From the NCBI GenBank assembly GCA_041480845.1, contig JBGPAU010000001.1, forward strand, positions 5,382 through 69,381: DNA of 64,000 bases. The letters are read 5' to 3'. The notes beneath the pieces are model-generated. The model was not told where the DNA came from. It did no database searches and saw nothing but the letters and a program-made list of their open reading frames with translations. The position numbers were made by a program, and so were the translations under genes. The DNA comes from Patescibacteria group bacterium (GTDB lineage Bacteria > Patescibacteriota > Microgenomatia > UBA8517). Positions 6,813 through 60,213 of the stretch are shown one piece after another. The stretch's first letter is position 1. Every line of letters begins with the position of its first letter.

Positions 6813-7223
6813 ATGAATATAACCTCAAACATTAAAGGACAATTGGCTGTAAGTAAAACCGAACTTAGAGCATTGGAATTAGGATTTTTACCCTCCAGGC
6901 CGCTCTTTGATACAAGATACGACTTGATTATTGATGATCACGAATCTTTGGTTCGTGTACAAATTAAGTATGCTGACGGGAAATCTGCAAATAGTACTGG
7001 AGTTGTTGTAACAAAATTGGAATATATTGACAGGCAAAAGAAAACTTTTACATATAGGGATGAGGAGGTAGATGCCTTAATTGTGTATATCCCGAAAGTT
7101 GACAAACTGTGTTATATACCCAAAAAGCTGTTTATTGGGAAAAGAAAATTAAATATTCGAATTTCAAAATCCAAAAATAACCAGAAAAAAGGCATAATTG
7201 CGGCAGAAGACTATTACTGGTAG
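6813..7223 (+). CDS. Hypothetical 136-aa protein, possibly with a PD-(D/E)xK-like nuclease fold. Lies immediately upstream of the intron-containing tRNA-Asp.
   Basis: Intact ORF, basic C-terminus. D...EVD...K spacing (RDEEVDALIVYIPK) is weakly reminiscent of a restriction-endonuclease-like fold. Confidence 0.3.
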   Translation: MNITSNIKGQLAVSKTELRALELGFLPSRPLFDTRYDLIIDDHESLVRVQIKYADGKSANSTGVVVTKLEYIDRQKKTFTYRDEEVDALIVYIPKVDKLCYIPKKLFIGKRKLNIRISKSKNNQKKGIIAAEDYYW

Positions 7224-7226: not shown

Positions 7227-7234
7227 ACGCATGT

Positions 7235-7524
7235 GGGGTCGTAGCTCAATGGCTAGAGCGCTTCCCTGTCAAATGTGGCAGCGCCCCGGTGTGAATTGGG
7301 GTGTAAAACCAGGCTAATTCGGGGAACATCCGGAGTTTATCGAAGGACAATCCCGAGCTAAATTTCTAGATAACGTTTTGGGCTGTAAGTCCTGAGCGAA
7401 GTCGAAGGATAAATGTGTAGAGACTATATACCTGGCTCCTTTTAAAGGATGATGAGATAGTCCAAACTTTTTGAAATAAGAAGGAGCACGGAAGAGGTTG
7501 CGAGTCCGAATCTCGTCGACCCCG
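7235..7524 (+). tRNA. tRNA-Asp (anticodon GUC) interrupted by a group I intron. Exon 1 is 7235-7269, exon 2 is 7487-7524.
   Basis: The 5' half (GGGGUCG-UA-GCUCAAUGGCUAGAGC-G-CUUCC-CUGU) and 3' half (CAC-GGAAG-AGGUU-GCGAG-UCCGAAU-CUCGU-CGACCCC-G) assemble into a canonical cloverleaf with anticodon loop CUGUCAC. Confidence 0.75.
7270..7486 (+). ncRNA. Group I self-splicing intron (about 217 nt) in the tRNA-Asp anticodon loop, inserted between nt 35 and 36.
   Basis: 5' exon ends in U; intron ends in G. Guide sequence GUGGCAG near the intron 5' end pairs with 5' exon CUGU (P1) and with 3' exon CAC (P10). P-like AAUUGGGG, Q-like AAUCCCGAG, R-like GUAGAGACUAUA and S-like GAGAUAGUCC elements are present. 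Confidence 0.7.
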
Positions 7525-7539
7525 CCCACATTTAAAGGA

Positions 7540-20769: not shown

Positions 20770-20805
20770 TTGTTCTTTTACTTTTCGTATGCGGGTGTAG
20801 CTTAT

Positions 20806-20880
20806 AGGCTGGTGGCTCAGTCCGGTTAGAGCGCCGCAGTTTAAATGCGGAGGTCGGAGGTTCAAGTCCTTCCCAGCCTA
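20806..20880 (+). tRNA. Class I tRNA with anticodon UUA (ochre-suppressor-like; derived from tRNA-Lys or similar).
   Basis: Acceptor AGGCUGG/CCAGCCU, D-arm GCUCAGUCCGGUUAGAGC, anticodon arm CCGCA-GUUUAAA-UGCGG (positions 34-36 = UUA), 5-nt variable loop, T-arm GGAGG-UUCAAGU-CCUUC. Confidence 0.5.
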
Positions 20881-20881
20881 T

Positions 20882-30525: not shown

Positions 30526-31149
30526 TTAGTTTTGGTATCTTCGCACTAAGCCCACAACCTTTCCCTGAATTCTTACATTTTTTACAAAAATCGGCTGCAT
30601 CTTGGCATTCGCCGGCTCAAGTCTGATTCTTGTAGTTTCTCTGAAAAATCTTTTAAGAGTAGCCATACCATTATCAAGAAGTGCAACAACTATTTCACCG
30701 TTTGTTGCGGCTTCTGCTTGCTCAATAATTACATGATCTCCATCCATTATTCCGTCTTCTATCATGCTTTCCCCGCGTACTTGCAAAACGTAAGTTCTTT
30801 TCTTTCCGCTGACGAAAGCTGCCGGAATATTCATGGTAGCATTGGGGTCGGTATACGGTTCAATTGGAGCCCCTGCTGCAATAAACCCCAAAATGGGAGC
30901 GTCAAACCCTTCGGGTGCTCCCAGGTTAACATCGCTTTGTGCCAAATCGATAGACCTCATTTTACCGGATTTACGGATAATAAGACCCTTAGCTTCCAAA
31001 GCCTGGAGATGCTCATGGACGGTAGCAAGAGATGAAACACCAATCGACTCTGCTATTTGTTTTAATGTCGGAGCTGTTCCGTTTGACTGAATATATTGCT
31101 TAATAAAACCAAGTATCTGTTTTTGTCTTTTATATATGATGATCGGCAT
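30526..31149 (-). CDS. lexA: LexA repressor (S24 peptidase).
   Basis: wHTH N-terminus, Ala-Gly cleavage site (AAGAP), and catalytic S (GESM) and K (TLKRF). Confidence 0.85.
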   Translation of the reverse strand: MPIIIYKRQKQILGFIKQYIQSNGTAPTLKQIAESIGVSSLATVHEHLQALEAKGLIIRKSGKMRSIDLAQSDVNLGAPEGFDAPILGFIAAGAPIEPYTDPNATMNIPAAFVSGKKRTYVLQVRGESMIEDGIMDGDHVIIEQAEAATNGEIVVALLDNGMATLKRFFRETTRIRLEPANAKMQPIFVKNVRIQGKVVGLVRRYQN

Positions 31150-31212
31150 GGTTCGATGTTGCTCACCATCAATATACGAAGATTACCCGAAGTGGTCAAG
31201 TACATCTTTCTA

Positions 31213-31268
31213 TATATAAATAGCACGCGATCCTGAGCCAAGTCGAAGGATCAACTGGATCTTTCTGT
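31213..31268 (+). promoter_or_regulatory. Conserved about 55-bp element in the lexA/uvrB divergent intergenic region. It has the form TATAYAAATAGCRCGC + hairpin GATCCUGAGCCAAGUCGAAGGAUC + ATCTTTCT. Candidate SOS operator or 5'-UTR structure; a near-identical copy lies at 59876-59930.
   Basis: Direct sequence comparison of the two copies. Stem bases covary (GATCCT/AGGATC versus GTCCT/AGGAC). Confidence 0.4.
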
Positions 31269-31280
31269 TACAATGTATCC

Positions 31281-33302
31281 ATGATGTTTAGACTTTCATC
31301 AAAATTTCAACCAATTCCCGACCAGGATAAAGCTATTTCGACTTTGTCTAATCGGATTTTGCTTGGAGAAAAATATCAAACACTGTTGGGTGTAACGGGA
31401 TCCGGTAAAACTTTTGCCATGGCAGGGGTAATTGAAAATGTTCAGCGTCCCACGCTTATTATTTCCCACAACAAAACATTGGCAGCCCAACTTTATCAGG
31501 AACTGAGAGATTTTTTTCCGAATAATGCCGTCAGCTATTTTGTATCTTATTATGATTATTACCAGCCGGAAGCTTATATCCCTTCAACTGATACATATAT
31601 TGAAAAGGACGCAGATATTAATGAAACCATTGATAAACTCCGTCTTGCGGCAACCACAAATCTTTTAACCCGTTCCGACACTATAGTCGTTGCTTCGGTT
31701 TCTTGTATTTATAACATAGGTTCGCCCCGTGAATACGGCCATTTTGTCTTGGAGTTTACGGAAGGAATGAAAATCGGTAGGGAGCAGATTATCGATCGGC
31801 TGGTGGACCTGCAGTACGAGCGGAGTGATTTTGGCTTTAACCGGGGAACTTTCAGGGTCCGCGGAAACGCAATCGACATTTATCCTGCTTATCTTGATCA
31901 GGGAGTTCATATTGAATTTGGCCAGGAAAAAATTGAGAAAGTCGAACTGATTAATCCGGTTACCGGAAATAAATCAGAGAAAAAAGAGGGTTTTGACCCC
32001 TCAAATTTTGTTTTATACCCGGCCAAACATTTTATGACAGATCCTTCTGCACACACCGATGCCTTTGATGCAATTAAAAAGGATTTGATGACCCGTGTGG
32101 CCCAACTTAAGAAAGAGGGAAAGATTTTGGAAGCTCATAGGATTGCTCAAAAGGTCACATATGACCTTGAAATGATAAAAGAGGTCGGCTACGTTAAAGG
32201 AATTGAAAATTATTCCAGATATTTTGACGGAAGAAAGGCCGGAGACGTACCGTTTTCTCTTTTGGATTATTTCAACGAGCCATATAAAGATAAGTGGTTG
32301 CTTTTGGTTGACGAATCCCATATGACTTTTCCCCAAATCCGTGGGATGTTTAACGGGGATCTTGCCCGGAAACAAACGTTAATCGATTACGGTTTTCGCT
32401 TACCTTCCGCACTTGATAATAGACCTTTGAGATTTGAGGAATTTATGCGCAGGGTTCCGAATTTCATTGCCAGCTCGGCAACACCTAACGAATGGGAAAT
32501 AAGCATGAGCGGCGGGAAAACCGTAGAACTATTGGTTCGCCCTACGGGAATTCCGGATCCCTTGGTAGAAATCCGACCGGTTAAAAATCAAGTAGCTGAC
32601 ATTATTGAGGAAATCAAAAAAACAGTAGGCAAAAAACAAAGAACTTTAGTTACAACTTTGACCAAAAGAACTGCCGAAGATTTAACAACTTACTTAAACG
32701 AGCAGGGATTAAATGTTCAGTACCTGCATTCGGATGTGGCAACTCTTGACCGGACGGATATTCTTGACGACCTAAGAAACGGCAAATATGACGTGCTTGT
32801 CGGTATCAATTTGCTTAGGGAGGGACTGGATCTGCCGGAAGTGAGCCTGGTAGCGATTTTGGATGCCGATAAAGAGGGTTTTTTACGAAGTGACGTAACA
32901 CTTATTCAAACGATGGGTAGGGCTGCCAGACACGTTGAGGGGCGTGTAATCATGTATGCCGACCATGTAACAGGGTCAATGGAAAGAGCCTTACACGAGG
33001 TTAAAAGGCGTCGTAAGTATCAGCTCGCGTACAACAAAAAGCACAATATAACTCCTGTTAGTGTCGAAAAGCCCATCCGTGGAAAATTGGTAGATAGGGA
33101 AGAAGGAGAGAAAGCCCCCTGGGTATTTGGTTCCAAAGAACCGATCTATGACAGTCTGCCTCATTTGGAAGTTGATTCCATGACGCCGATGGAGAAAAAG
33201 AGATTGATTAAGAATTTGACTACCGAAATGCGCATGTCTGCACAAGATTTAAATTTCGAACTGGCAGCAAAAATACGTGATACAATACTATCTCTTCAAT
33301 GA
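31281..33302 (+). CDS. uvrB: Excinuclease ABC subunit B.
   Basis: Helicase motifs (GVTGSGKT, DESH), beta-hairpin region, and C-terminal UvrB/UvrC interaction motif. Confidence 0.95.
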   Translation: MMFRLSSKFQPIPDQDKAISTLSNRILLGEKYQTLLGVTGSGKTFAMAGVIENVQRPTLIISHNKTLAAQLYQELRDFFPNNAVSYFVSYYDYYQPEAYIPSTDTYIEKDADINETIDKLRLAATTNLLTRSDTIVVASVSCIYNIGSPREYGHFVLEFTEGMKIGREQIIDRLVDLQYERSDFGFNRGTFRVRGNAIDIYPAYLDQGVHIEFGQEKIEKVELINPVTGNKSEKKEGFDPSNFVLYPAKHFMTDPSAHTDAFDAIKKDLMTRVAQLKKEGKILEAHRIAQKVTYDLEMIKEVGYVKGIENYSRYFDGRKAGDVPFSLLDYFNEPYKDKWLLLVDESHMTFPQIRGMFNGDLARKQTLIDYGFRLPSALDNRPLRFEEFMRRVPNFIASSATPNEWEISMSGGKTVELLVRPTGIPDPLVEIRPVKNQVADIIEEIKKTVGKKQRTLVTTLTKRTAEDLTTYLNEQGLNVQYLHSDVATLDRTDILDDLRNGKYDVLVGINLLREGLDLPEVSLVAILDADKEGFLRSDVTLIQTMGRAARHVEGRVIMYADHVTGSMERALHEVKRRRKYQLAYNKKHNITPVSVEKPIRGKLVDREEGEKAPWVFGSKEPIYDSLPHLEVDSMTPMEKKRLIKNLTTEMRMSAQDLNFELAAKIRDTILSLQ

Positions 33303-33571: not shown

Positions 33572-36484
33572 ATGGATAACTATATTAAAATTCGTGGTGC
33601 CCGACAGCACAATTTAAAAAATATTGATTTGGATATTCCCAAGAACAAACTTGTAGTTTTAACGGGGGTTTCCGGCAGTGGAAAAAGTTCGTTGGCTTTT
33701 GACACTCTTTACGCGGAAGGGCAAAGAAGGTATGTGGAATCACTTTCTTCCTATGCCAGACAATTCCTGGGTATTATGCAAAAACCTGACGTGGATTCAA
33801 TTGAAGGCCTTTCGCCTGCAATTTCCATTGATCAGAAGACCACTTCCCACAATCCCAGGAGTACGGTTGGCACAGTTACCGAAATTTACGATTACTTAAG
33901 GCTTCTATTTGCCAGAATTGGGCATCCTCATTGTCCGATTTGCGGACGGGAAATATCTCATCAAACACTTGATCAAATTGTTGATCAGGCGCTCGATTTG
34001 ATAGAGGCGACTGCAAAAAGCGATAGAAAAGCTTGGTTTCTGTTACTTTCCCCCATGGTTCAGGAACGAAAAGGCGAATTTTCCCAACTTTTTGAAAATT
34101 TAAAATCAAAAGGTTATCGTCAAGTTCGTATTGACGGATATATTCACGATTTGTCGGAAGATTTGGTTTTAATCAAGACAAACAAACACACAATTGAAGC
34201 CGTAATCGATCGGATAGCTCTTACTATAGATAGCTTAAGAGGACTGTCCTCTAAAGCTGAGGTAAAAAACAGATTGGCCGATTCGATACAACAAGCTCTT
34301 AATTTATCGGAAGGAATGGTGGTTTTAGCCCAAGTTCTTGATAAAGAGTTTAGTATGCCGTCTTCACCCAAAAAATTTGAGGACCATCTTTTTTCGGAAA
34401 GGTTTGCTTGTCCCGTTGATAACATTAACCTCCCAGAAATTGAACCGCGTTCGTTTTCTTTCAATTCACCTCAAGGGGCTTGCCCAACTTGCACAGGTTT
34501 GGGGAAAATTCTTAAAGTAGATTCCAATTTGGTATTTTCTCCGGAATTAACAATTATGGAAGGCGGGATTTTACCTTTTTCCAACATGTTTGAACACGAA
34601 ACCTGGTACGGCAGGCTGATCAAAAAAATGTGTGAAGAAAATAATATCAATATGCATATTGCGATTGGCGAATTGTCCGCCGATCAGATCAACATTCTCC
34701 TAAAAGGAACAGGAGATAGACAATATCATGTTTACGGAACAAACAGATTTGGGAGAGAAACTTATATTTGGGAGAAGTTTATTGGATTTACCGCGGAATT
34801 GGAAAGAAGATACTCCGAAAGTGAAAGTGATTGGGTTAAGGAGGAAATCAGAAAATATATGAGGGAAAAGATTTGTCCGCAGTGTGGGGGAACAAGACTC
34901 AAAAAAGAGGCGCTTTCTATCACGGTTGCAGATTTGTCTATCTCCGATGTAACCGAGTTTTCGATATTGACATGTATTGGTTGGATCGAGAAACTAGATA
35001 AAATTTTAAACGCGAGAGAAAAAGAAATAAGCCGACTTGTCATTAAGGAAACTTTGGGAAGACTAAAGTTTTTAATTTCGGTTGGTTTGGAATATTTAAC
35101 TCTAAACCGTGTTGCGGGATCACTGTCAGGAGGGGAGGCACAAAGAATAAGGTTGGCTTCCCAAATCGGATCCGGCTTAACAGGAGTTTTATATGTTCTG
35201 GATGAACCTACAATCGGACTTCACCCGCGGGATGATCAAAAACTGATTGATACTCTCAAAAATTTAAGGGATTTGGGAAATACAGTAGTAGTTGTAGAAC
35301 ATGATGCAACCATGATGCGACAAAGCGACTTTATTGCTGATTTTGGGCCGGGAGCGGGTAAACATGGCGGTGAAGTTGTTGCCACGGGATCACCTAAAGA
35401 AATCGAAAAAAATCCAAAATCACTTACCGGTAAATATTTATCTGGTAAGAAAGTAATTCAGTTAATCAGTAATTCAGTAAGTCAGTTGCCTATTAAAAAC
35501 GAAACGTTGAAAATATTTGGCGCAGACATGTATAATCTAAAAAATATTGATGTTGCCTTTCCCCTGGGAAAATTAATTGCAATTACAGGGGTCTCCGGTT
35601 CCGGCAAATCAACTTTATTGGTTGAGACTTTGTATCCGGCTCTCCAAAAAGAATTGTATACAAATTACCGCGGAGAGGCGGGAGGATATAAAAAAATTGA
35701 AGGATTGGAAAATGTAGATAAAGCGATTCTAATCGACCAAAGCCCCATCGGAAGGACACCAAGAAGTAATCCCGCTACATATACGGGGCTTTTTGACCCA
35801 ATTCGCGATGTTTACACCTTAACTCATGATGCCAAAACCGCAGGTTATAAAAAGGGCAGATTTTCTTTTAACGTCAGAGGAGGGAGGTGTGAAGCTTGCG
35901 AAGGACAGGGACAAATAAAGATTGAAATGCAGTTTATGAGCGATATTTGGGTAACTTGCGATGTTTGTCACGGAAGAAGGTATAACGCTCAGACTTTGGA
36001 AATTACCTACCGCGGTAAAAATATTGCGGAGGTGTTGGGTATGACCGTTGATGATGCGCTTGAGTTTTTTCATGCTCACCCGCAAATTGAAAGTAAACTT
36101 GAAACTTTGGATCTAGTTGGACTTGGATATATGGAACTCGGGCAACCCGCAACCACTCTTTCCGGAGGAGAAGCGCAGAGGGTTAAATTGGCAACCGAAC
36201 TTTCAAGGCGTTCTACAGGTAGAACAATTTATATTCTGGACGAACCCACAACAGGACTACATTTTGCCGACGTTGAGCGTCTAATGCGGGTACTAAAACT
36301 ACTCGTTCAAAAAGGTAACTCAGTTTTTGTAATTGAACACAATTTGGACGTGATTAAAAATTGCGATTATATTATCGATTTGGGACCCGAAGGGGGAGAC
36401 GCCGGGGGAGAGGTTGTGGCAATCGGAAAGCCACAGGATATTATTAAAAATAAGGCTTCATATACAGGAGAATATTTAAGGTAA
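33572..36484 (+). CDS. uvrA: Excinuclease ABC subunit A.
   Basis: Two ABC ATPase modules (GVSGSGKSS twice, LSGGE signature twice) and Zn-finger Cys clusters. Confidence 0.95.
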   Translation: MDNYIKIRGARQHNLKNIDLDIPKNKLVVLTGVSGSGKSSLAFDTLYAEGQRRYVESLSSYARQFLGIMQKPDVDSIEGLSPAISIDQKTTSHNPRSTVGTVTEIYDYLRLLFARIGHPHCPICGREISHQTLDQIVDQALDLIEATAKSDRKAWFLLLSPMVQERKGEFSQLFENLKSKGYRQVRIDGYIHDLSEDLVLIKTNKHTIEAVIDRIALTIDSLRGLSSKAEVKNRLADSIQQALNLSEGMVVLAQVLDKEFSMPSSPKKFEDHLFSERFACPVDNINLPEIEPRSFSFNSPQGACPTCTGLGKILKVDSNLVFSPELTIMEGGILPFSNMFEHETWYGRLIKKMCEENNINMHIAIGELSADQINILLKGTGDRQYHVYGTNRFGRETYIWEKFIGFTAELERRYSESESDWVKEEIRKYMREKICPQCGGTRLKKEALSITVADLSISDVTEFSILTCIGWIEKLDKILNAREKEISRLVIKETLGRLKFLISVGLEYLTLNRVAGSLSGGEAQRIRLASQIGSGLTGVLYVLDEPTIGLHPRDDQKLIDTLKNLRDLGNTVVVVEHDATMMRQSDFIADFGPGAGKHGGEVVATGSPKEIEKNPKSLTGKYLSGKKVIQLISNSVSQLPIKNETLKIFGADMYNLKNIDVAFPLGKLIAITGVSGSGKSTLLVETLYPALQKELYTNYRGEAGGYKKIEGLENVDKAILIDQSPIGRTPRSNPATYTGLFDPIRDVYTLTHDAKTAGYKKGRFSFNVRGGRCEACEGQGQIKIEMQFMSDIWVTCDVCHGRRYNAQTLEITYRGKNIAEVLGMTVDDALEFFHAHPQIESKLETLDLVGLGYMELGQPATTLSGGEAQRVKLATELSRRSTGRTIYILDEPTTGLHFADVERLMRVLKLLVQKGNSVFVIEHNLDVIKNCDYIIDLGPEGGDAGGEVVAIGKPQDIIKNKASYTGEYLR

Positions 36485-56854: not shown

Positions 56855-57095
56855 CAAGTTGGGGCTACGGTCCTGAGCTTGTCGAAGGATTCGACTCCTC
56901 CCCTCGGCACACTTCTTGACTTTAATTTGTAGCCAACTATACTTCTTTCTGATTCTCAATTAAGCCAGTTTTGTTGGCTAAAAAAGGAATTATTTCGCTC
57001 ATTTACACATAAAAGGAGGTGGTGAGAAAGGTAAACCGTTTGTTTACGCCACGGGAACTTTCCCGACTCTGTTCATTCCCTAAAGGAGGGAATAA

Positions 57096-57662
57096 ATGAA
57101 AACAAAATGTTCGTTGATACTTGCAGTTGTTGTACTTGTAATGGCCACGTTGGCATGTGACGCATCATCGTTACCGTTTTTCCCAACACCGACGCCGCTG
57201 CCAACCTACACACCGTTACCGACGTACACTTTGCAACCGACATTCACACCTGTTCCGACCGCAACGCTCGTACCGACGTTTACGCCACTTCCACAGATAC
57301 TTGGTATTGACTCGCCCGTATCGGTTTTGGATGTCGATTTCACTTTTTTTGCGGTTGCAATTACTGATGTCCCAACCAATAACGGAGCAAATCTTATGAC
57401 GCCAAACGCCGGCTATTCTGTTTTAATAGCCAGTGCATATTATACCGGCGACATAAGTTCTCTTTTTAACGACTCCTATCAGGGAGTTGGTGTCTTATAC
57501 ATCGATGACGGAGTTTACGCTATGAACGATTGGTCGAGCGTATCCTGGAGTAACTTTATTGTGTACATCGGGTTTTATGTGAAGACGGAGGCAAACTCCT
57601 ATATTCTGCACAACACTGTTGGTCAAGCCTGGTCAATCGACCTTGGTAGTTTGATCCCGTAA
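57096..57662 (+). CDS. Secreted protein with Pro/Thr-rich repeats (PTxTPLPTYTP...), hypothetical.
   Basis: Signal peptide and Cys-anchored start (LAC), a Pro/Thr repeat region, and AAGGAGGG RBS. Confidence 0.5.
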   Translation: MKTKCSLILAVVVLVMATLACDASSLPFFPTPTPLPTYTPLPTYTLQPTFTPVPTATLVPTFTPLPQILGIDSPVSVLDVDFTFFAVAITDVPTNNGANLMTPNAGYSVLIASAYYTGDISSLFNDSYQGVGVLYIDDGVYAMNDWSSVSWSNFIVYIGFYVKTEANSYILHNTVGQAWSIDLGSLIP

Positions 57663-57866: not shown

Positions 57867-58373
57867 ATGTTTAAACAAATTATTCTTCCCATTCTGGCTG
57901 TTGTGATATTTATCATCATCGTCGGACTTTTTGTCCAAAAATCCTCTTCCTTGGGTCTTTCAGGTTTAAAAACTCCGACTCCGATAGCAAAGTCCGAAAA
58001 AACTATTACGGTTGGAGCCAAAAAAATTCAAGTTCAAATCGCCGATAACGCAGAGAAAAGGGCCAAAGGCCTTTCGGGCGTAGCTTCCCTCAAAGCGGAT
58101 AGCGGTATGCTTTTTGTGTTTGACACTAAAGACCTTGCTCCAATTTTTTGGATGAAAGACATGCTGATTCCACTTGACATGATTTGGATACGAGACGGGA
58201 AAATCGTAAAGATCGATAAAAATGTTCTGATTCCGTCTCCCGGCACTCCCGACAGTAATTTAAAGACATACTCTGCCGGACAAACCGTTGACTACGTGCT
58301 TGAGGTGAACGCAGGCTTCTCAAATCAAAACAATATTAAAGTGGGTGACAGCGTTGATCTATCCGGAATTTAA
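57867..58373 (+). CDS. DUF192 (COG1430) domain protein, membrane-anchored.
   Basis: N-terminal TM and the conserved DUF192 core (GLSG...MLFVF......FWMKDMLIPLDMIWI). Confidence 0.6.
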   Translation: MFKQIILPILAVVIFIIIVGLFVQKSSSLGLSGLKTPTPIAKSEKTITVGAKKIQVQIADNAEKRAKGLSGVASLKADSGMLFVFDTKDLAPIFWMKDMLIPLDMIWIRDGKIVKIDKNVLIPSPGTPDSNLKTYSAGQTVDYVLEVNAGFSNQNNIKVGDSVDLSGI

Positions 58374-59606
58374 TGTAAATTCTTCCAACTCCTTAACTCC
58401 TCCGAAAGCAATTCTGTCCATTACTATTTTAGCTCCGCCGAAGCTTCTGGCGCTTCCTACGGTAAACCCTCCCCATCTTTCGTTTACGGAGTCGAGAGCG
58501 GTAACCAAATCACGCTTTTTGTCTACATCCTCAAAAAGTCCAAGTTGCAGGCACCGATTCCTTGTTAAGCCGAAGCAGGAAACCGCAATATTTAGGACCG
58601 GAGTTTTAGGGTCTGCCTCGATCAGGAGCTTGAAGGCGGCTTTATAGAAATCCCTTGAATCAAAATAGGGCTGAATCAAAAGCCTACCCTTGTGCCACCA
58701 TGAGCCGTTTTTAAAGGTCAGCATAAGGTGAATGCCGCCTGCGCAGTACCGCGCCCCTCTTAGCCTGCCACACATCTTCTCCGTGAGTCTGGCGAGGATG
58801 GGGGAGAGTTCCTCAATTTTACTCAAATTTTTGCCCAAGGCTACCGAATTGCCGTAGCTTCGTCTTCCGAACTCAATATCGTCAACCTCGTAGCCGGAAA
58901 GGCGTGCGTGCCAGTAAAAGCCTGTAATAGAATGGAAAGCCGCCTTAAGCCTCCAAATTGGTGCTTGGTAGAAATCCAAGACAGAGTAAATCCCCATTCC
59001 ATTGAGTCTGGCGGCATTTCGCGCCTTTATCCCGGTCAAGTCAGTCAGCTTCAATTTGGAATATACGCTCAAAAAATTGTCTTTATTTATTTCATCAAGC
59101 CCGTCGGGTTTTCTTAAACCCGCAGCGATTTTTGCCAAGTACCGGTTTGGCGCAATCCCGATAGAAACCGTAAGCCATTCCCCAATTTCGCTTCTTATTC
59201 TGTCTTTTATTTCTTGTGCGACTACCTTTATAGGACTGTCCTCTAAAGCTGGATAGTCTTTTAAATTTAAAACAAACTCATCGATGGATTTTGGAGAAAA
59301 ATCATTGGTATAATCGGCAATCAGTTTCCGAAGCTTCAGGTGAACGTTACGATATTTCCAGGGGTCGGAAGGAAGCACTATGAGTCCGGAGTAAATTGCA
59401 CGGCCGTCACGGACTCTCATTCCTGTTTTTATCCCTAATCTTTTGGCTTCAACGGATGCAGCCAGAATACAACCTCCGGGGGAAGTAAAAGCCGCAACGG
59501 CAACGGGTTTTCCCCTCAAAAACGGATTTGCCTGCTGTTCAATAGTCGCAAAGCAGGAATTAAGGTCAATATGCATTATGTATGAGGGGGAGGAATTAAA
59601 TTCCAT
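58359..59606 (-). CDS. dinB: DNA polymerase IV (Y-family).
   Basis: IMHIDLNSCFATIE start, Y-family palm/finger motifs, and a little-finger domain. Confidence 0.85.
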   Translation of the reverse strand: MEFNSSPSYIMHIDLNSCFATIEQQANPFLRGKPVAVAAFTSPGGCILAASVEAKRLGIKTGMRVRDGRAIYSGLIVLPSDPWKYRNVHLKLRKLIADYTNDFSPKSIDEFVLNLKDYPALEDSPIKVVAQEIKDRIRSEIGEWLTVSIGIAPNRYLAKIAAGLRKPDGLDEINKDNFLSVYSKLKLTDLTGIKARNAARLNGMGIYSVLDFYQAPIWRLKAAFHSITGFYWHARLSGYEVDDIEFGRRSYGNSVALGKNLSKIEELSPILARLTEKMCGRLRGARYCAGGIHLMLTFKNGSWWHKGRLLIQPYFDSRDFYKAAFKLLIEADPKTPVLNIAVSCFGLTRNRCLQLGLFEDVDKKRDLVTALDSVNERWGGFTVGSARSFGGAKIVMDRIAFGGVKELEEFTLNSG

Positions 59607-59829
59607 CGCTTACTTCCTCCAACCTCCACCCCAAAGTTTCGGTATCAAATCGAAGTTTCATGGCTAAAGTTTTTGTGGAGACAGAAAAGATATGATAGAG
59701 GACTCGGCCCTCGCGAAAGGTATAGTGCAGACCGACTTTTTCAATTTTATGAACACGGGCCCGCCATTTAACCCACTTTGGAAAATCACTCATTCCGACT
59801 GTTACTTTTTCGTCAATCGCCTCTGCCAT
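59596..59829 (-). CDS. Small hypothetical protein upstream of, and overlapping, dinB. Probably co-transcribed.
   Basis: 77-aa ORF with an 11-bp overlap with the dinB start. Confidence 0.35.
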   Translation of the reverse strand: MAEAIDEKVTVGMSDFPKWVKWRARVHKIEKVGLHYTFREGRVLYHIFSVSTKTLAMKLRFDTETLGWRLEEVSDGI

Positions 59830-59875
59830 ACTTACTTGTAACCCGAATAAAATACGAAGTCAAGCACTATTATTT

Positions 59876-59930
59876 TATACAAATAGCGCGCAGTCCTGAG
59901 TGAAATCGAAGGACAAGTATATCTTTCTAT
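59876..59930 (+). promoter_or_regulatory. Second copy of the conserved element (TATACAAATAGCGCGC + hairpin AGUCCUGAGUGAAAUCGAAGGAC + ATCTTTCT), in the divergent region upstream of the dinB operon.
   Basis: About 40/55 identity to 31213-31268, with compensatory stem changes. Confidence 0.4.
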
Positions 59931-59963
59931 TGATATTTTCAAAATTTAAAATAATATAAGATT

Positions 59964-60185
59964 GTGACATTACAAGGAGGTTTTGCTAAAGGACAATTAA
60001 GAGATGTCGTAGGAGTCGGCAGTGTTATAAATGCGGAGGGGCATCAGGGTGTCTCTAAGGCGCATAAAATAGAAGATATTATTATTAACGTAGAAGAAAA
60101 AGGGTTGGTAAAGAAAAAGTCCATTGGTGAGGCACCTATGAATAATCCCAGCTTTGGAACGAGTCCTTCCGAAAAAAAAGCCTGA
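59964..60185 (+). CDS. Small hypothetical ORF (73 aa).
   Basis: ORF only. Confidence 0.2.
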   Translation: MTLQGGFAKGQLRDVVGVGSVINAEGHQGVSKAHKIEDIIINVEEKGLVKKKSIGEAPMNNPSFGTSPSEKKA

Positions 60186-60213
60186 AGTCTTCTTTTTGTG
60201 CTACAGTTAATAT

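What the first reader, a model, noticed from the sequence alone, without database searches (positions are those of the whole stretch)
31213..31268. Conserved hairpin-containing element in both SOS divergent promoter regions (lexA/uvrB and dinB operon)
The two elements are:
- 31213-31268: TATATAAATAGCACGCGATCCTGAGCCAAGTCGAAGGATCAACTGGATCTTTCT
- 59876-59930: TATACAAATAGCGCGCAGTCCTGAGTGAAATCGAAGGACAAGTATATCTTTCT

They share a TATAYAAATAGCRCGC block and a hairpin (N)TCCT-GAGYNNNRTCGA-AGGA(N) whose stem shows compensatory changes (GATCCT/AGGATC versus GTCCT/AGGAC). They also share a trailing ATCTTTCT.

Both lie between a minus-strand SOS gene (lexA; the small-ORF/dinB operon) and a plus-strand gene (uvrB; a small ORF). 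That makes the element a candidate LexA operator/promoter module, or a conserved 5'-UTR RNA structure of the damage regulon in this lineage. It does not resemble the known LexA box families (CTGT-N8-ACAG, CGAAC-N4-GTTCG, GTTC-N7-GTTC).
Basis: partly seen in the sequence, partly recalled or inferred. Interest (0 to 1): 0.6.

Follow-up and report, generated by a model that had tools for sequence, protein, structure and literature searches.

The report
Hairpin cassette beside SOS promoters
The two look-alike blocks are real, but they are an optional two-hairpin DNA cassette lodged beside the damage-response promoters of this tiny bacterium, and the likely LexA repressor site is a different, conserved repeat just next to it.

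Summary
The two blocks exist at the stated coordinates and are far beyond chance (2 matches against 0.06 expected). Pfam confirms lexA/uvrB/uvrA and a small ORF plus a Y-family polymerase as the flanking genes.

The LexA-operator reading fails. Strains with 98-99% identical LexA have clean empty sites at lexA-uvrB. All four distinct dinB-side relatives lack the block. What every relative keeps is a direct repeat, CGAA-N7-CGAA (GTTC-N7-GTTC type on the gene strand).

The block is a cassette of two hairpins bracketed by an imperfect 16-nt duplication of the promoter segment TCAAnnnnATCTTTCT. Diverged versions sit at the same spot upstream of lexA in six other Microgenomates lineages.

Its second hairpin belongs to a family found across phyla: variable stem, TGAGC, variable centre, GTCGAA, stem. 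The family shows stem covariation, is not in Rfam, and is highly repeated in some Proteobacteria. This window holds five copies against 0.085 expected, including one in a tRNA group I intron and one over the lexA start codon.

The most likely reading is a REP-like or mobile structured spacer. A regulatory RNA role is not excluded.

The parts
31212..31250 (+). Core of cassette copy 1 (39 nt), ATATATAAATAGCACGCGATCCTGAGCCAAGTCGAAGGA. It comprises a degenerate hairpin A, the linker CGCGA, and hairpin B.
   Evidence: Sequence read. Absent from the empty sites in L133/L134 and present in L132 and in same-strain contigs. Model R1 match at 36.3 bits.
31229..31252 (+). Hairpin B of copy 1, GATCC-TGAGC-CAA-GTCGAA-GGATC. 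It is a member of the cross-phylum TGAGC...GTCGAA hairpin family.
31196..31211 (+). Left copy of the 16-nt direct repeat, TCAAGTACATCTTTCT. Its TCAA is part of the lexA -35 box (TTGACC on the minus strand).
   Evidence: The same variant occurs as a single copy in L004.
31251..31266 (+). Right copy of the direct repeat, TCAACTGGATCTTTCT. It is identical to the single copy in the empty-site alleles and is followed by the uvrB -10 box TACAAT (31269-31274). GATCTTTC within it can pair with GAAGGATC of hairpin B, forming an alternative hairpin.
   Evidence: L017 has the perfect version, GAAGGATC/GATCCTTC.
31176..31192 (-). Probable LexA operator of the lexA promoter. It reads ACGAAGATTACCCGAAG on the + strand, which is CTTCGGGTAATCTTCGT on the gene strand (a TTCG-N7-TTCG direct repeat). 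It lies between the -35 box TTGACC (31199-31194) and the -10 box TATATT (31176-31171).
31148..31169 (-). Family-type hairpin in the lexA 5' leader, AUGG-UGAGC-AACA-UCGAA-CCAU, read on the minus strand. The AUGG arm is in the leader (31169-31166); the CCAU arm (31151-31148) overlaps the first two bases, A and U, of the lexA start codon (31149-31147). It is absent from close relatives. Related versions occur in L017 and L038.
59876..59913 (+). Core of cassette copy 2 (38 nt), TATACAAATAGCGCGCAGTCCTGAGTGAAATCGAAGGA. Hairpin A is GCACTATT (59864-59871) paired with AATAGCGC (59882-59889). Hairpin B is 59893-59914.
   Evidence: Absent from the same site in L137, L139, L141 and L143.
59860..59875 (+). 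Left flank of copy 2, TCAAGCACTATTATTT. Its TCAAG is the conserved -35 region of the dinB-operon promoter (TTGACT on the minus strand).
59914..59928 (+). Right flank of copy 2, CAAGTATATCTTTCT. It resembles the lexA-type module and is not found at the dinB locus of relatives.
59842..59859 (-). Probable LexA operator of the small-ORF/dinB operon. It reads CCCGAATAAAATACGAAG on the + strand (CGAA-N7-CGAA) and is almost invariant in all four distinct relatives (six contigs).
59929..60190 (+). Remainder of the roughly 335-nt strain-specific segment that carries copy 2. It holds a promoter-like TTGATA-16-TAATAT and a 73-aa ORF (59964-60185).
7389..7410 (+). Family hairpin GTCC-TGAGC-GAA-GTCGAA-GGAT inside the P6 region of the group I intron of a tRNA gene.
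   Evidence: In the matching intron of L148 the family hairpin is P6 itself; L146/L147 carry a different hairpin there.
56869..56891 (+). Family hairpin GGTCC-TGAGC-TT-GTCGAA-GGATT, 14 nt after tRNA-Leu(TAG) and next to a degenerate copy of a tRNA 3' end.
   Evidence: (18 bits, E = 0.028).

Best explanation
The shared block is an accessory cassette of two hairpins. Hairpin A is followed by the linker CGNRGA and then hairpin B. The cassette sits immediately distal to the -35 TTGAC box of LexA-controlled promoters and is bracketed by an imperfect duplication of the local 16-19 nt promoter segment. It is not the LexA operator.

The probable operator is the neighbouring direct repeat CGAA-N7-CGAA, between the -35 and -10 boxes of the lexA and dinB-operon promoters.

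Hairpin B is a copy of a repeat-hairpin family found across phyla: a variable stem closing a conserved U-A, G.A, A.G, G-C, bulged U, C-G core. That family behaves like REP-type extragenic palindromes, and it has multiplied in this strain.

Shown:
- The cassette is dispensable and polymorphic.
- It travels between strains as a short recombination patch.
- It occurs only beside LexA-box promoters in the DNA examined.

Inferred:
- It arose by insertion or duplication at the TCAA of the -35 box.
- Its main effect is structural. It adds about 55 bp (five helical turns) between the divergent core promoters, which moves the uvrB -10 box away from the single LexA box.
- If it is transcribed rightward, it places a stem-loop in the leader.
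For: Empty and filled sites:
- L133/L134 (LexA 99/98% identical) read ...CCCGAACTCGTCAACTGGATCTTTCTGTTACAAT... with no cassette.
- L123-L127 also lack it.
- L137, L139, L141 and L143 lack copy 2, and the window has about 335 extra nt there.

Flanking direct repeats appear in every occurrence: the window, L023, L035 and L039, with two tandem units in L033.

Mosaic structure (spacer and uvrB comparison read from the sequences printed):
- lexA nucleotide identity is 94.6% between the window and the empty L133, but 88.6% between the window and the filled L132.
- I count only four differences, all inside the core, between the window and L132 across the roughly 125-nt cassette-bearing spacer.
- The first ~45 nt of uvrB also follow L132.

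Hairpin family:
- 42 IMG/VR stretches carry the exact core.
- 68 cores were found in those loci plus the window (65 in the viral loci), and all but one have paired flanks of 4-9 bp.
- Pairs 7-26 and 8-25 are paired in every sequence and show compensatory changes. The covariation score is 0.278 against 0.135 for shuffles, with 0 of 500 shuffles reaching it.
- Host G+C ranges from 24 to 72%, and most copies are intergenic.
- Several Sphingomonas replicons carry 20 or more copies each, and Comamonas has tandem arrays.
- No Rfam family matches.

Copy number: five copies in the window against 0.085 expected, versus 2 in 1.08 Mb of relatives.

Operator: the direct repeat is conserved next to GTCAA in most of the 54 of 80 lexA loci that carry GTCAA upstream, and in all dinB-side relatives. 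PMC7739468 cites the Patescibacteria study among the cases in which LexA evolved to recognise a direct-repeat motif.
Against: - No transposase, terminal inverted repeats or standard-length target duplication were found. A 16-19 nt duplication fits no known transposition chemistry.
- The composite cassette was found only upstream of lexA or dinB promoters, and never elsewhere in about 1 Mb of relatives. A 17-nt stretch (ATATAAATAGCACGCGA) is identical between the window and L023, although their LexA proteins are only 77% identical. Both facts suggest constraint or site specificity rather than a neutral repeat.
- All five window hairpins are in the sense orientation of the local transcript.
- An alternative hairpin (GAAGGATC with GATCYTTC) is kept in the window, L132 and L017.
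- The metagenome scan for the composite pattern returned only two chance hits. It did not recover even this strain, so it carries little weight for or against multi-copy mobility.
Confidence: 0.5

Rival explanations
1. The cassette is a cis-regulatory RNA: a structured 5' leader or small RNA of rightward, LexA-controlled transcripts. Hairpin B and the alternative hairpin (GAAGGATC with GATCYTTC) would act as mutually exclusive conformers, or as a protein-binding module that tunes uvrB, ORF73 and lexA expression after transcription.
For: - All five window copies are sense to the local transcript.
- The lexA-leader copy pairs with the first two bases of the lexA start codon.
- The family hairpin serves as P6 of a self-splicing intron in L148 and in the window, so it folds as RNA there.
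- The alternative pairing is kept with a compensating difference between the window and L017.
- Hairpin A covaries between lineages, GCACTATT/AATAGCGC against GGGCCAAA/TTTGGCCC.
- The cassette recurs at SOS promoters in seven lineages.
Against: - uvrB, lexA and the dinB operon look leaderless in relatives, with the -10 box 6-8 nt before the ATG, so the cassette may lie upstream of the transcription start.
- No convincing rightward promoter lies to its left.
- Folding z-scores for the window copies are weak, from -0.5 to -1.7.
- Across the family, G-U and A-C mismatches in the stems are equally frequent, 11 against 11, which gives no strand signal.
- The conserved loop has decayed in L132 and L039.
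- Close relatives do without the cassette.
Confidence: 0.25
2. The cassette is a DNA-level promoter accessory. It could be a binding site for a second regulator, an UP-like or curved element, or a cruciform that absorbs the negative supercoiling generated between divergent promoters.
For: - Its position relative to the -35 TTGAC box is fixed in all occurrences.
- The TCAAnnnnATCTTTCT module is duplicated at a spacing of 55 bp.
- The stems show no strand asymmetry.
- The loop of hairpin A is AT-rich (TATAAAT).
Against: - No candidate regulator is known.
- Hairpin sequences differ widely between lineages, so only the architecture is conserved.
- The cassette is dispensable in the nearest relatives.
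Confidence: 0.15
3. The block is the LexA operator of this lineage, or a second one.
For: - It lies in both SOS intergenic regions.
- Hairpin B contains one CGAAG that resembles an operator half-site.
Against: - It is absent from the lexA and dinB promoters of strains with nearly identical LexA.
- It has no dyad and no 11-nt-spaced direct repeat.
- The same hairpin occurs in a tRNA intron, after a tRNA gene, and in unrelated phyla with other LexA motifs.
- A conserved operator-type repeat lies next to it.
Confidence: 0.04

Closest known systems
REP / BIME extragenic palindromes of Proteobacteria
   Same: Short imperfect palindromes that are extragenic and multi-copy. They cluster in both orientations in some genomes (Sphingomonas, Comamonas). 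The stems vary while a short motif is kept.
   Different: - The conserved part is an asymmetric loop (TGAGC...GTCGAA) shared across phyla. REPs instead have a lineage-specific palindrome with a 5' GTAG.
- No RAYT gene was seen.
- In this window the copies are few and all sense-oriented.
IS200/IS605-derived miniature elements (PATEs)
   Same: No terminal inverted repeats, two internal hairpins, and the same tetranucleotide (TCAA) at the left flank and the right end. From memory, IS608 ends in TCAA and inserts 3' of a fixed tetranucleotide.
   Different: - Only about 55 nt long.
- The two hairpins are unlike each other.
- The flanks carry a 16-19 nt duplication, which IS200/IS605 elements do not make.
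- No tnpA or tnpB is linked.
Direct-repeat LexA boxes (GTTC-N7-GTTC of Alphaproteobacteria; the Patescibacteria motif of Sanchez-Osuna et al. 2017, cited in PMC7739468)
   Same: The neighbouring CGAA-N7-CGAA repeat has this form. It lies between the -35 and -10 boxes of lexA and of the dinB operon.
   Different: The 2017 paper could not be read here, so identity with its motif is unverified.
Peripheral P6 hairpins of bacterial tRNA group I introns
   Same: The same hairpin forms, or extends, P6 in the tRNA intron of this window and of L148.
   Different: In the SOS regions there is no intron core around the hairpin.
5' stem-loop stabilisers and attenuator-type leaders
   Same: A hairpin close to a promoter, with an alternative pairing partner downstream.
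   Different: There is no U-tract terminator. No evidence shows that the cassette is transcribed.

Membership tests
LexA operator (SOS box) | Two half-sites, as a dyad or a direct repeat, spaced to fit a LexA dimer | tested here: not met
   The core is asymmetric. It has a single CGAAG and no partner at 11 nt. The adjacent CGAA-N7-CGAA repeat does meet this feature.
LexA operator (SOS box) | Conserved upstream of lexA and other SOS genes in relatives with the same LexA | tested here: not met
   Absent in L133, L134, L123-L127, L001-L016 and others, and in the dinB-side loci L137-L143. Present in 7 of about 85 lexA loci.
LexA operator (SOS box) | Overlaps the core promoter of the repressed gene | tested here: not met
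   The block lies distal to the -35 box of the lexA and dinB-operon promoters. For uvrB it lies upstream of the -10 box, but it is not needed there, as the empty alleles show.
LexA operator (SOS box) | Bound by LexA | not testable with these tools
   Requires a gel-shift or footprint.
REP / BIME | Imperfect palindrome of 20-40 nt with stem covariation | tested here: met
   pairs 7-26 and 8-25 are paired in every sequence and show compensatory changes.
REP / BIME | Many extragenic copies per genome | tested here: inconclusive
   Five copies in 64 kb here, against 0.085 expected. Several Sphingomonas replicons carry 20 or more. The whole genome of this strain was not available.
REP / BIME | 5' GTAG tetranucleotide and a cognate RAYT transposase | tested here: not met
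   GTAG is seen at only 2 of 65 copies in the viral loci (L086, L092). The window was not scanned systematically for a RAYT gene.
MITE | Terminal inverted repeats plus a short, fixed-length target duplication | tested here: not met
   The hairpins are internal and the ends are not inverted repeats. The flanking repeats are 16-19 nt and imperfect.
IS200/IS605-type miniature element | Subterminal hairpins at both ends, insertion 3' of a fixed tetranucleotide, no target duplication | tested here: inconclusive
   Two hairpins and TCAA on both sides are present. But the hairpins are dissimilar, and a long duplication is present.
Any Rfam family | Match to a curated covariance model | tested here: not met
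   Only tRNAs and the group I intron were found.
TGAGC...GTCGAA repeat-hairpin family (defined here) | Paired flanks closing U-A, G.A, A.G, G-C, bulged U and C-G, with a short loop or an inserted helix | tested here: met
   Both SOS copies score 36 bits with model R1. Copy 2 carries U-A in place of the inner C-G pair.

The most novel reading that the evidence does not exclude
The UGAGC...GUCGAA hairpin may be an uncatalogued nucleic-acid module, found across phyla, that a conserved protein or enzyme recognises. In this Woesebacteria lineage it would have been recruited into the SOS regulon. It would act as a hairpin overlapping the lexA start codon in the lexA leader, and as a two-hairpin cassette with alternative pairing beside the lexA/uvrB and dinB promoters. 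That would give the damage response a second, LexA-independent layer of control.
Probability: 0.15. Interest if true: 0.75.

Novelty: new variant of a known kind. Interest (0 to 1): 0.5.

Why it matters
First, it prevents a mis-annotation. The operator of this candidate-phyla-radiation SOS regulon is the direct repeat next to the block, not the block itself.

Second, it exposes two things that appear to be uncatalogued:
- A structured cassette that keeps reappearing at one exact position beside LexA-controlled promoters in Microgenomates.
- A hairpin with a nearly invariant asymmetric core that is shared by genomes from 24 to 72% G+C and is absent from Rfam.

If the hairpin turns out to be recognised by a conserved factor, it would be a broadly distributed element with no assigned function. 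If it is simply a repeat, this locus is a clean natural experiment, with filled and empty alleles at 94.6% flanking identity, on how small insertions rewire divergent promoters.

Tried and rejected
- Rfam at permissive thresholds on both SOS regions and on the expanded L023 element found nothing relevant. Rfam at gathering thresholds on 17 hairpin-bearing loci found only tRNAs.
- I compared the core by eye with hammerhead, kink-turn, sarcin-ricin and 11-nt-receptor motifs. The defining nucleotides do not fit any of them.
- The resemblance of ATCCTG to the IncP nick-site consensus was judged coincidental.
- Literature searches by sequence and by typical translated peptides found nothing relevant. 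The 2017 Patescibacteria SOS paper is not held.
- The metagenome scan with a composite pattern returned two chance hits in GC-rich coding DNA, so it gave no information on spread.
- The count of CGAA-N7-CGAA in the window alone is not significant, 4 against 2.6 expected. Its support comes from conservation at matching positions in relatives.
- The idea that the 335-nt dinB-side segment is a copy of the lexA locus rests only on a weak similarity between ORF73 and the LexA helix-turn-helix (9 of 25 residues, pairwise E = 0.014). It remains an unconfirmed lead.
- The G-U against A-C strand test on the family gave no asymmetry.

Full report
**1. The observation**

- AAATAGCRCGCNNTCCTGAG occurs exactly twice, against 0.06 expected in shuffles.
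- The alignment of the two intergenic regions extends leftward into ATACGAAG...TCAAGYAC.
- Pfam confirms the flanking genes: lexA (30526-31149, -), uvrB (31281-33302, +), uvrA (33572-36484, +), and a Y-family polymerase (58359-59606, -) preceded by an overlapping 77-aa ORF (59596-59829, -).
- The stem differences are compensatory as claimed. One outer pair is A-T against G-C, and one inner pair is C-G against U-A.

**2. Organism and comparison set**

LexA homologues place the window in the Microgenomates/Woesebacteria, part of the candidate phyla radiation. I collected:
- 80 lexA loci from species-representative genomes;
- lexA contigs of very close strains;
- dinB-operon loci of relatives;
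- matching tRNA-intron loci.

**3. The likely LexA operator is the neighbour, not the block**

In relatives the lexA upstream region reads CAT..ATATACGAAnATTACCCGAAnn-GTCAA....
- On the gene strand this is a -35 TTGAC box, then TTCGGGTAATnTTCG (a TTCG-N7-TTCG direct repeat of the GTTC-N7-GTTC type), then a -10 box.
- The consensus scan finds TTGACC-17-TATATT for lexA in the window, with the repeat filling the spacer.
- The dinB operon has the same layout. CCCGAAnAAAATACGAAG-TCAAG is almost invariant in L137, L139, L141 and L143, while everything beyond it diverges.
- In the window the repeats lie at 31176-31192 and 59842-59859.
- The count in the window alone is not significant (4 against 2.6 expected). 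The support comes from conservation at matching positions.
- PMC7739468 cites the Patescibacteria study among the cases in which LexA evolved to recognise a direct-repeat motif. I could not read the primary paper.

**4. The block is dispensable**

At lexA-uvrB:
- L133 and L134 (LexA 99% and 98% identical; lexA nucleotides 94.6% and 94.1% identical to the window) read ...CCCGAACTCGTCAACTGGATCTTTCTGTTACAATATG..., a clean empty site.
- The window and L132 read ...GTCAAGTACATCTTTCT[ATATATAAATAGCACGCGATCCTGAGCCAAGTCGAAGGA]TCAACTGGATCTTTCTGTTACAAT....
- So the 39-nt core (31212-31250) is bracketed by a 16-nt direct repeat with 12 of 16 positions identical.
- Other close strains (L123-L127) also lack the block. 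They carry a second operator-like repeat before uvrB instead.

At the dinB locus:
- Every relative goes from TCAAGTAC into a short spacer, or into unrelated DNA.
- The window has about 335 extra nucleotides. They contain copy 2, an ATCTTTCT module, a promoter-like site and a 73-aa ORF.

An operator would not be missing from the promoters of strains with the same repressor.

**5. Mosaic structure**

By lexA nucleotides the window is closer to the empty L133 (94.6%) than to the filled L132 (88.6%). Reading the sequences printed, I count only four differences, all inside the core, between the window and L132 across the roughly 125-nt cassette-bearing spacer. The first ~45 nt of uvrB follow L132 before switching to an L133-like sequence. 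The filled allele therefore moves between strains as a short patch of homologous recombination, or the spacer is under strong constraint.

**6. The cassette recurs at the same place**

Diverged versions lie directly after the GTCAAG of the lexA -35 box in L017, L023, L033 (two tandem units), L035 and L039. Comparing them shows the architecture:
- Hairpin A: GCACTATT/AATAGCGC in window copy 2, GTGCCATTTA/TAAATAGCAC in L023, and GGGCCAAA/TTTGGCCC in L035 and L039.
- A linker, CGNRGA.
- Hairpin B.
- A second TCAA(G/C), followed by a copy of the lineage's own promoter segment.

Folding supports both hairpins in L023 (z = -2.3) and L039 (z = -2.7), and more weakly in window copy 2 (z = -1.7). In the L035 stretch folded (z = -3.3) only hairpin A lies inside the stretch. 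Hairpin A of copy 1 is degenerate.

In about 1 Mb of relatives, the composite occurs only upstream of lexA.

**7. Hairpin B belongs to a family found across phyla**

- The exact core TCCTGAGYNAARTCGAAGGA occurs in 42 IMG/VR stretches.
- Those loci plus the window hold 68 cores (65 in the viral loci), and all but one have paired flanks of 4-9 bp.
- In an alignment of 55 distinct copies, pairs 7-26 and 8-25 are paired in every sequence, with 7 and 11 double changes. The covariation score is 0.278 against 0.135 for shuffles, and 0 of 500 shuffles reach it.
- One caveat applies. The search pattern fixed the innermost stem of the primary hits, so the variation comes mostly from secondary copies.
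- Host G+C ranges from 24 to 72%, and most copies are intergenic.
- Several Sphingomonas parapaucimobilis replicons carry 20 or more copies each. A Comamonas plasmid has tandem ~130-nt units containing the hairpin in both orientations, some with long insertions between TGAGC and GTCGAA.
- The consensus is: stem, UGAGC, variable centre (a GAA triloop or a whole helix), GUCGAA, stem.
- That consensus is compatible with U-A, tandem G.A/A.G, G-C, a bulged U and C-G.
- No Rfam model matches it, and I found no paper on it.
- G-U and A-C mismatches in the stems are equally frequent, so the family gives no sign of which strand matters.

**8. This strain is enriched for the family**

A structure-aware pattern finds five copies in the window against 0.085 expected. 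It finds only 2 in 1.08 Mb of relatives, and model R1 confirms four of the five window copies. The five copies are:
- 7389-7410, inside the tRNA group I intron;
- 31148-31169 (minus strand), in the lexA leader, where the CCAU arm overlaps the first two bases of the lexA start codon;
- 31229-31252, cassette copy 1;
- 56869-56891, just after tRNA-Leu;
- 59893-59914, cassette copy 2.

All five are sense to the local transcript.

In the matching intron of L148 the family hairpin is P6 itself. In the closest relatives, L146 and L147, P6 is a different hairpin. Hairpins of the lexA-leader type also occur in L017 and L038.

**9. Interpretation**

What is shown:
- The block is real.
- It is not the operator.
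- It is an optional, structured cassette with a fixed position beside LexA-box promoters.
- Its second hairpin is a member of a widespread repeat family.

What is inferred:
- It arose by insertion or duplication at the TCAA of the -35 box.
- It spreads by recombination.
- It mainly changes promoter geometry. In the empty allele the single LexA box sits about 25 nt from the uvrB -10 box. In the filled allele it sits about 80 nt away.

I put this reading at about 0.5.

A regulatory RNA reading (0.25) is kept alive by four things: the sense orientation of all five copies, the overlap of the leader hairpin with the lexA start codon, the alternative pairing conserved between the window and L017, and the site specificity. 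A role as a DNA-level promoter accessory gets 0.15. The operator reading gets 0.04.

**10. Novelty**

The LexA-box part is ordinary. The cassette and the hairpin family appear uncatalogued, but they resemble known kinds of element (REP-like repeats and promoter-proximal stem-loops). I therefore class the finding as a new variant of a known kind, of moderate interest.

Noticed in passing
window 7234-7530 and 6813-7223: A tRNA gene is interrupted in the anticodon loop by a group I intron (Rfam RF00028, 54.7 bits). ARAGORN does not call this tRNA. The ORF just upstream is a group I intron-associated PD-(D/E)XK endonuclease (PF11645). The intron's P6 differs between close relatives.
   Followed up: partly
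window 20805-20881: A well-scoring tRNA (66.8 bits) has the anticodon loop GUUUAAA, giving anticodon UUA. That would read the UAA stop codon. It sits next to tRNA-Cys.
   Followed up: partly
window 56856-56915; L137 and L141 after their tRNA-Leu: tRNA-Leu(TAG) is followed by a degenerate duplicate of a tRNA 3' end. The duplicate resembles the tRNA-Leu allele of other strains more than the window's own. Beyond it lies a strain-specific 188-aa ORF (57096-57662) with no Pfam match. Relatives show similar partial duplicates. It looks like an integration or gene-replacement scar.
   Followed up: partly
window 59964-60185: A strain-specific 73-aa ORF lies downstream of cassette copy 2. It has a weak similarity to the recognition-helix region of LexA (residues 37-61; 9 of 25 identical, pairwise E = 0.014) and no Pfam match.
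   Followed up: partly
window 59596-59829: A 77-aa ORF overlaps the start of the Y-family polymerase gene. It is conserved (118 homologues, no Pfam domain) and always precedes that gene in relatives. It is an uncharacterised partner in the SOS operon.
   Followed up: no
window 31269-31283; relatives L010, L023, L123, L133: The -10 boxes of uvrB, lexA and the dinB operon lie only 6-8 nt before the start codon in most relatives. This implies leaderless mRNAs. The window's lexA is an exception because of the inserted leader hairpin.
   Followed up: partly
L145 1100-2100 (Comamonas antarctica plasmid) and L144 680-1240 (Sphingomonas plasmid): The Comamonas locus has a tandem array of ~130-nt units, each holding two family hairpins in opposite orientation. 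The Sphingomonas locus has four identical tandem tRNA genes just upstream of family hairpins.
   Followed up: no
L006, L007, L010, L011 and many others (record titles): Many of the retrieved lexA loci, whose LexA is 59-83% identical to this Woesebacteria protein, come from records titled 'uncultured Gammaproteobacteria' or 'Pseudomonadales'. The titles appear to be mislabelled.
   Followed up: no
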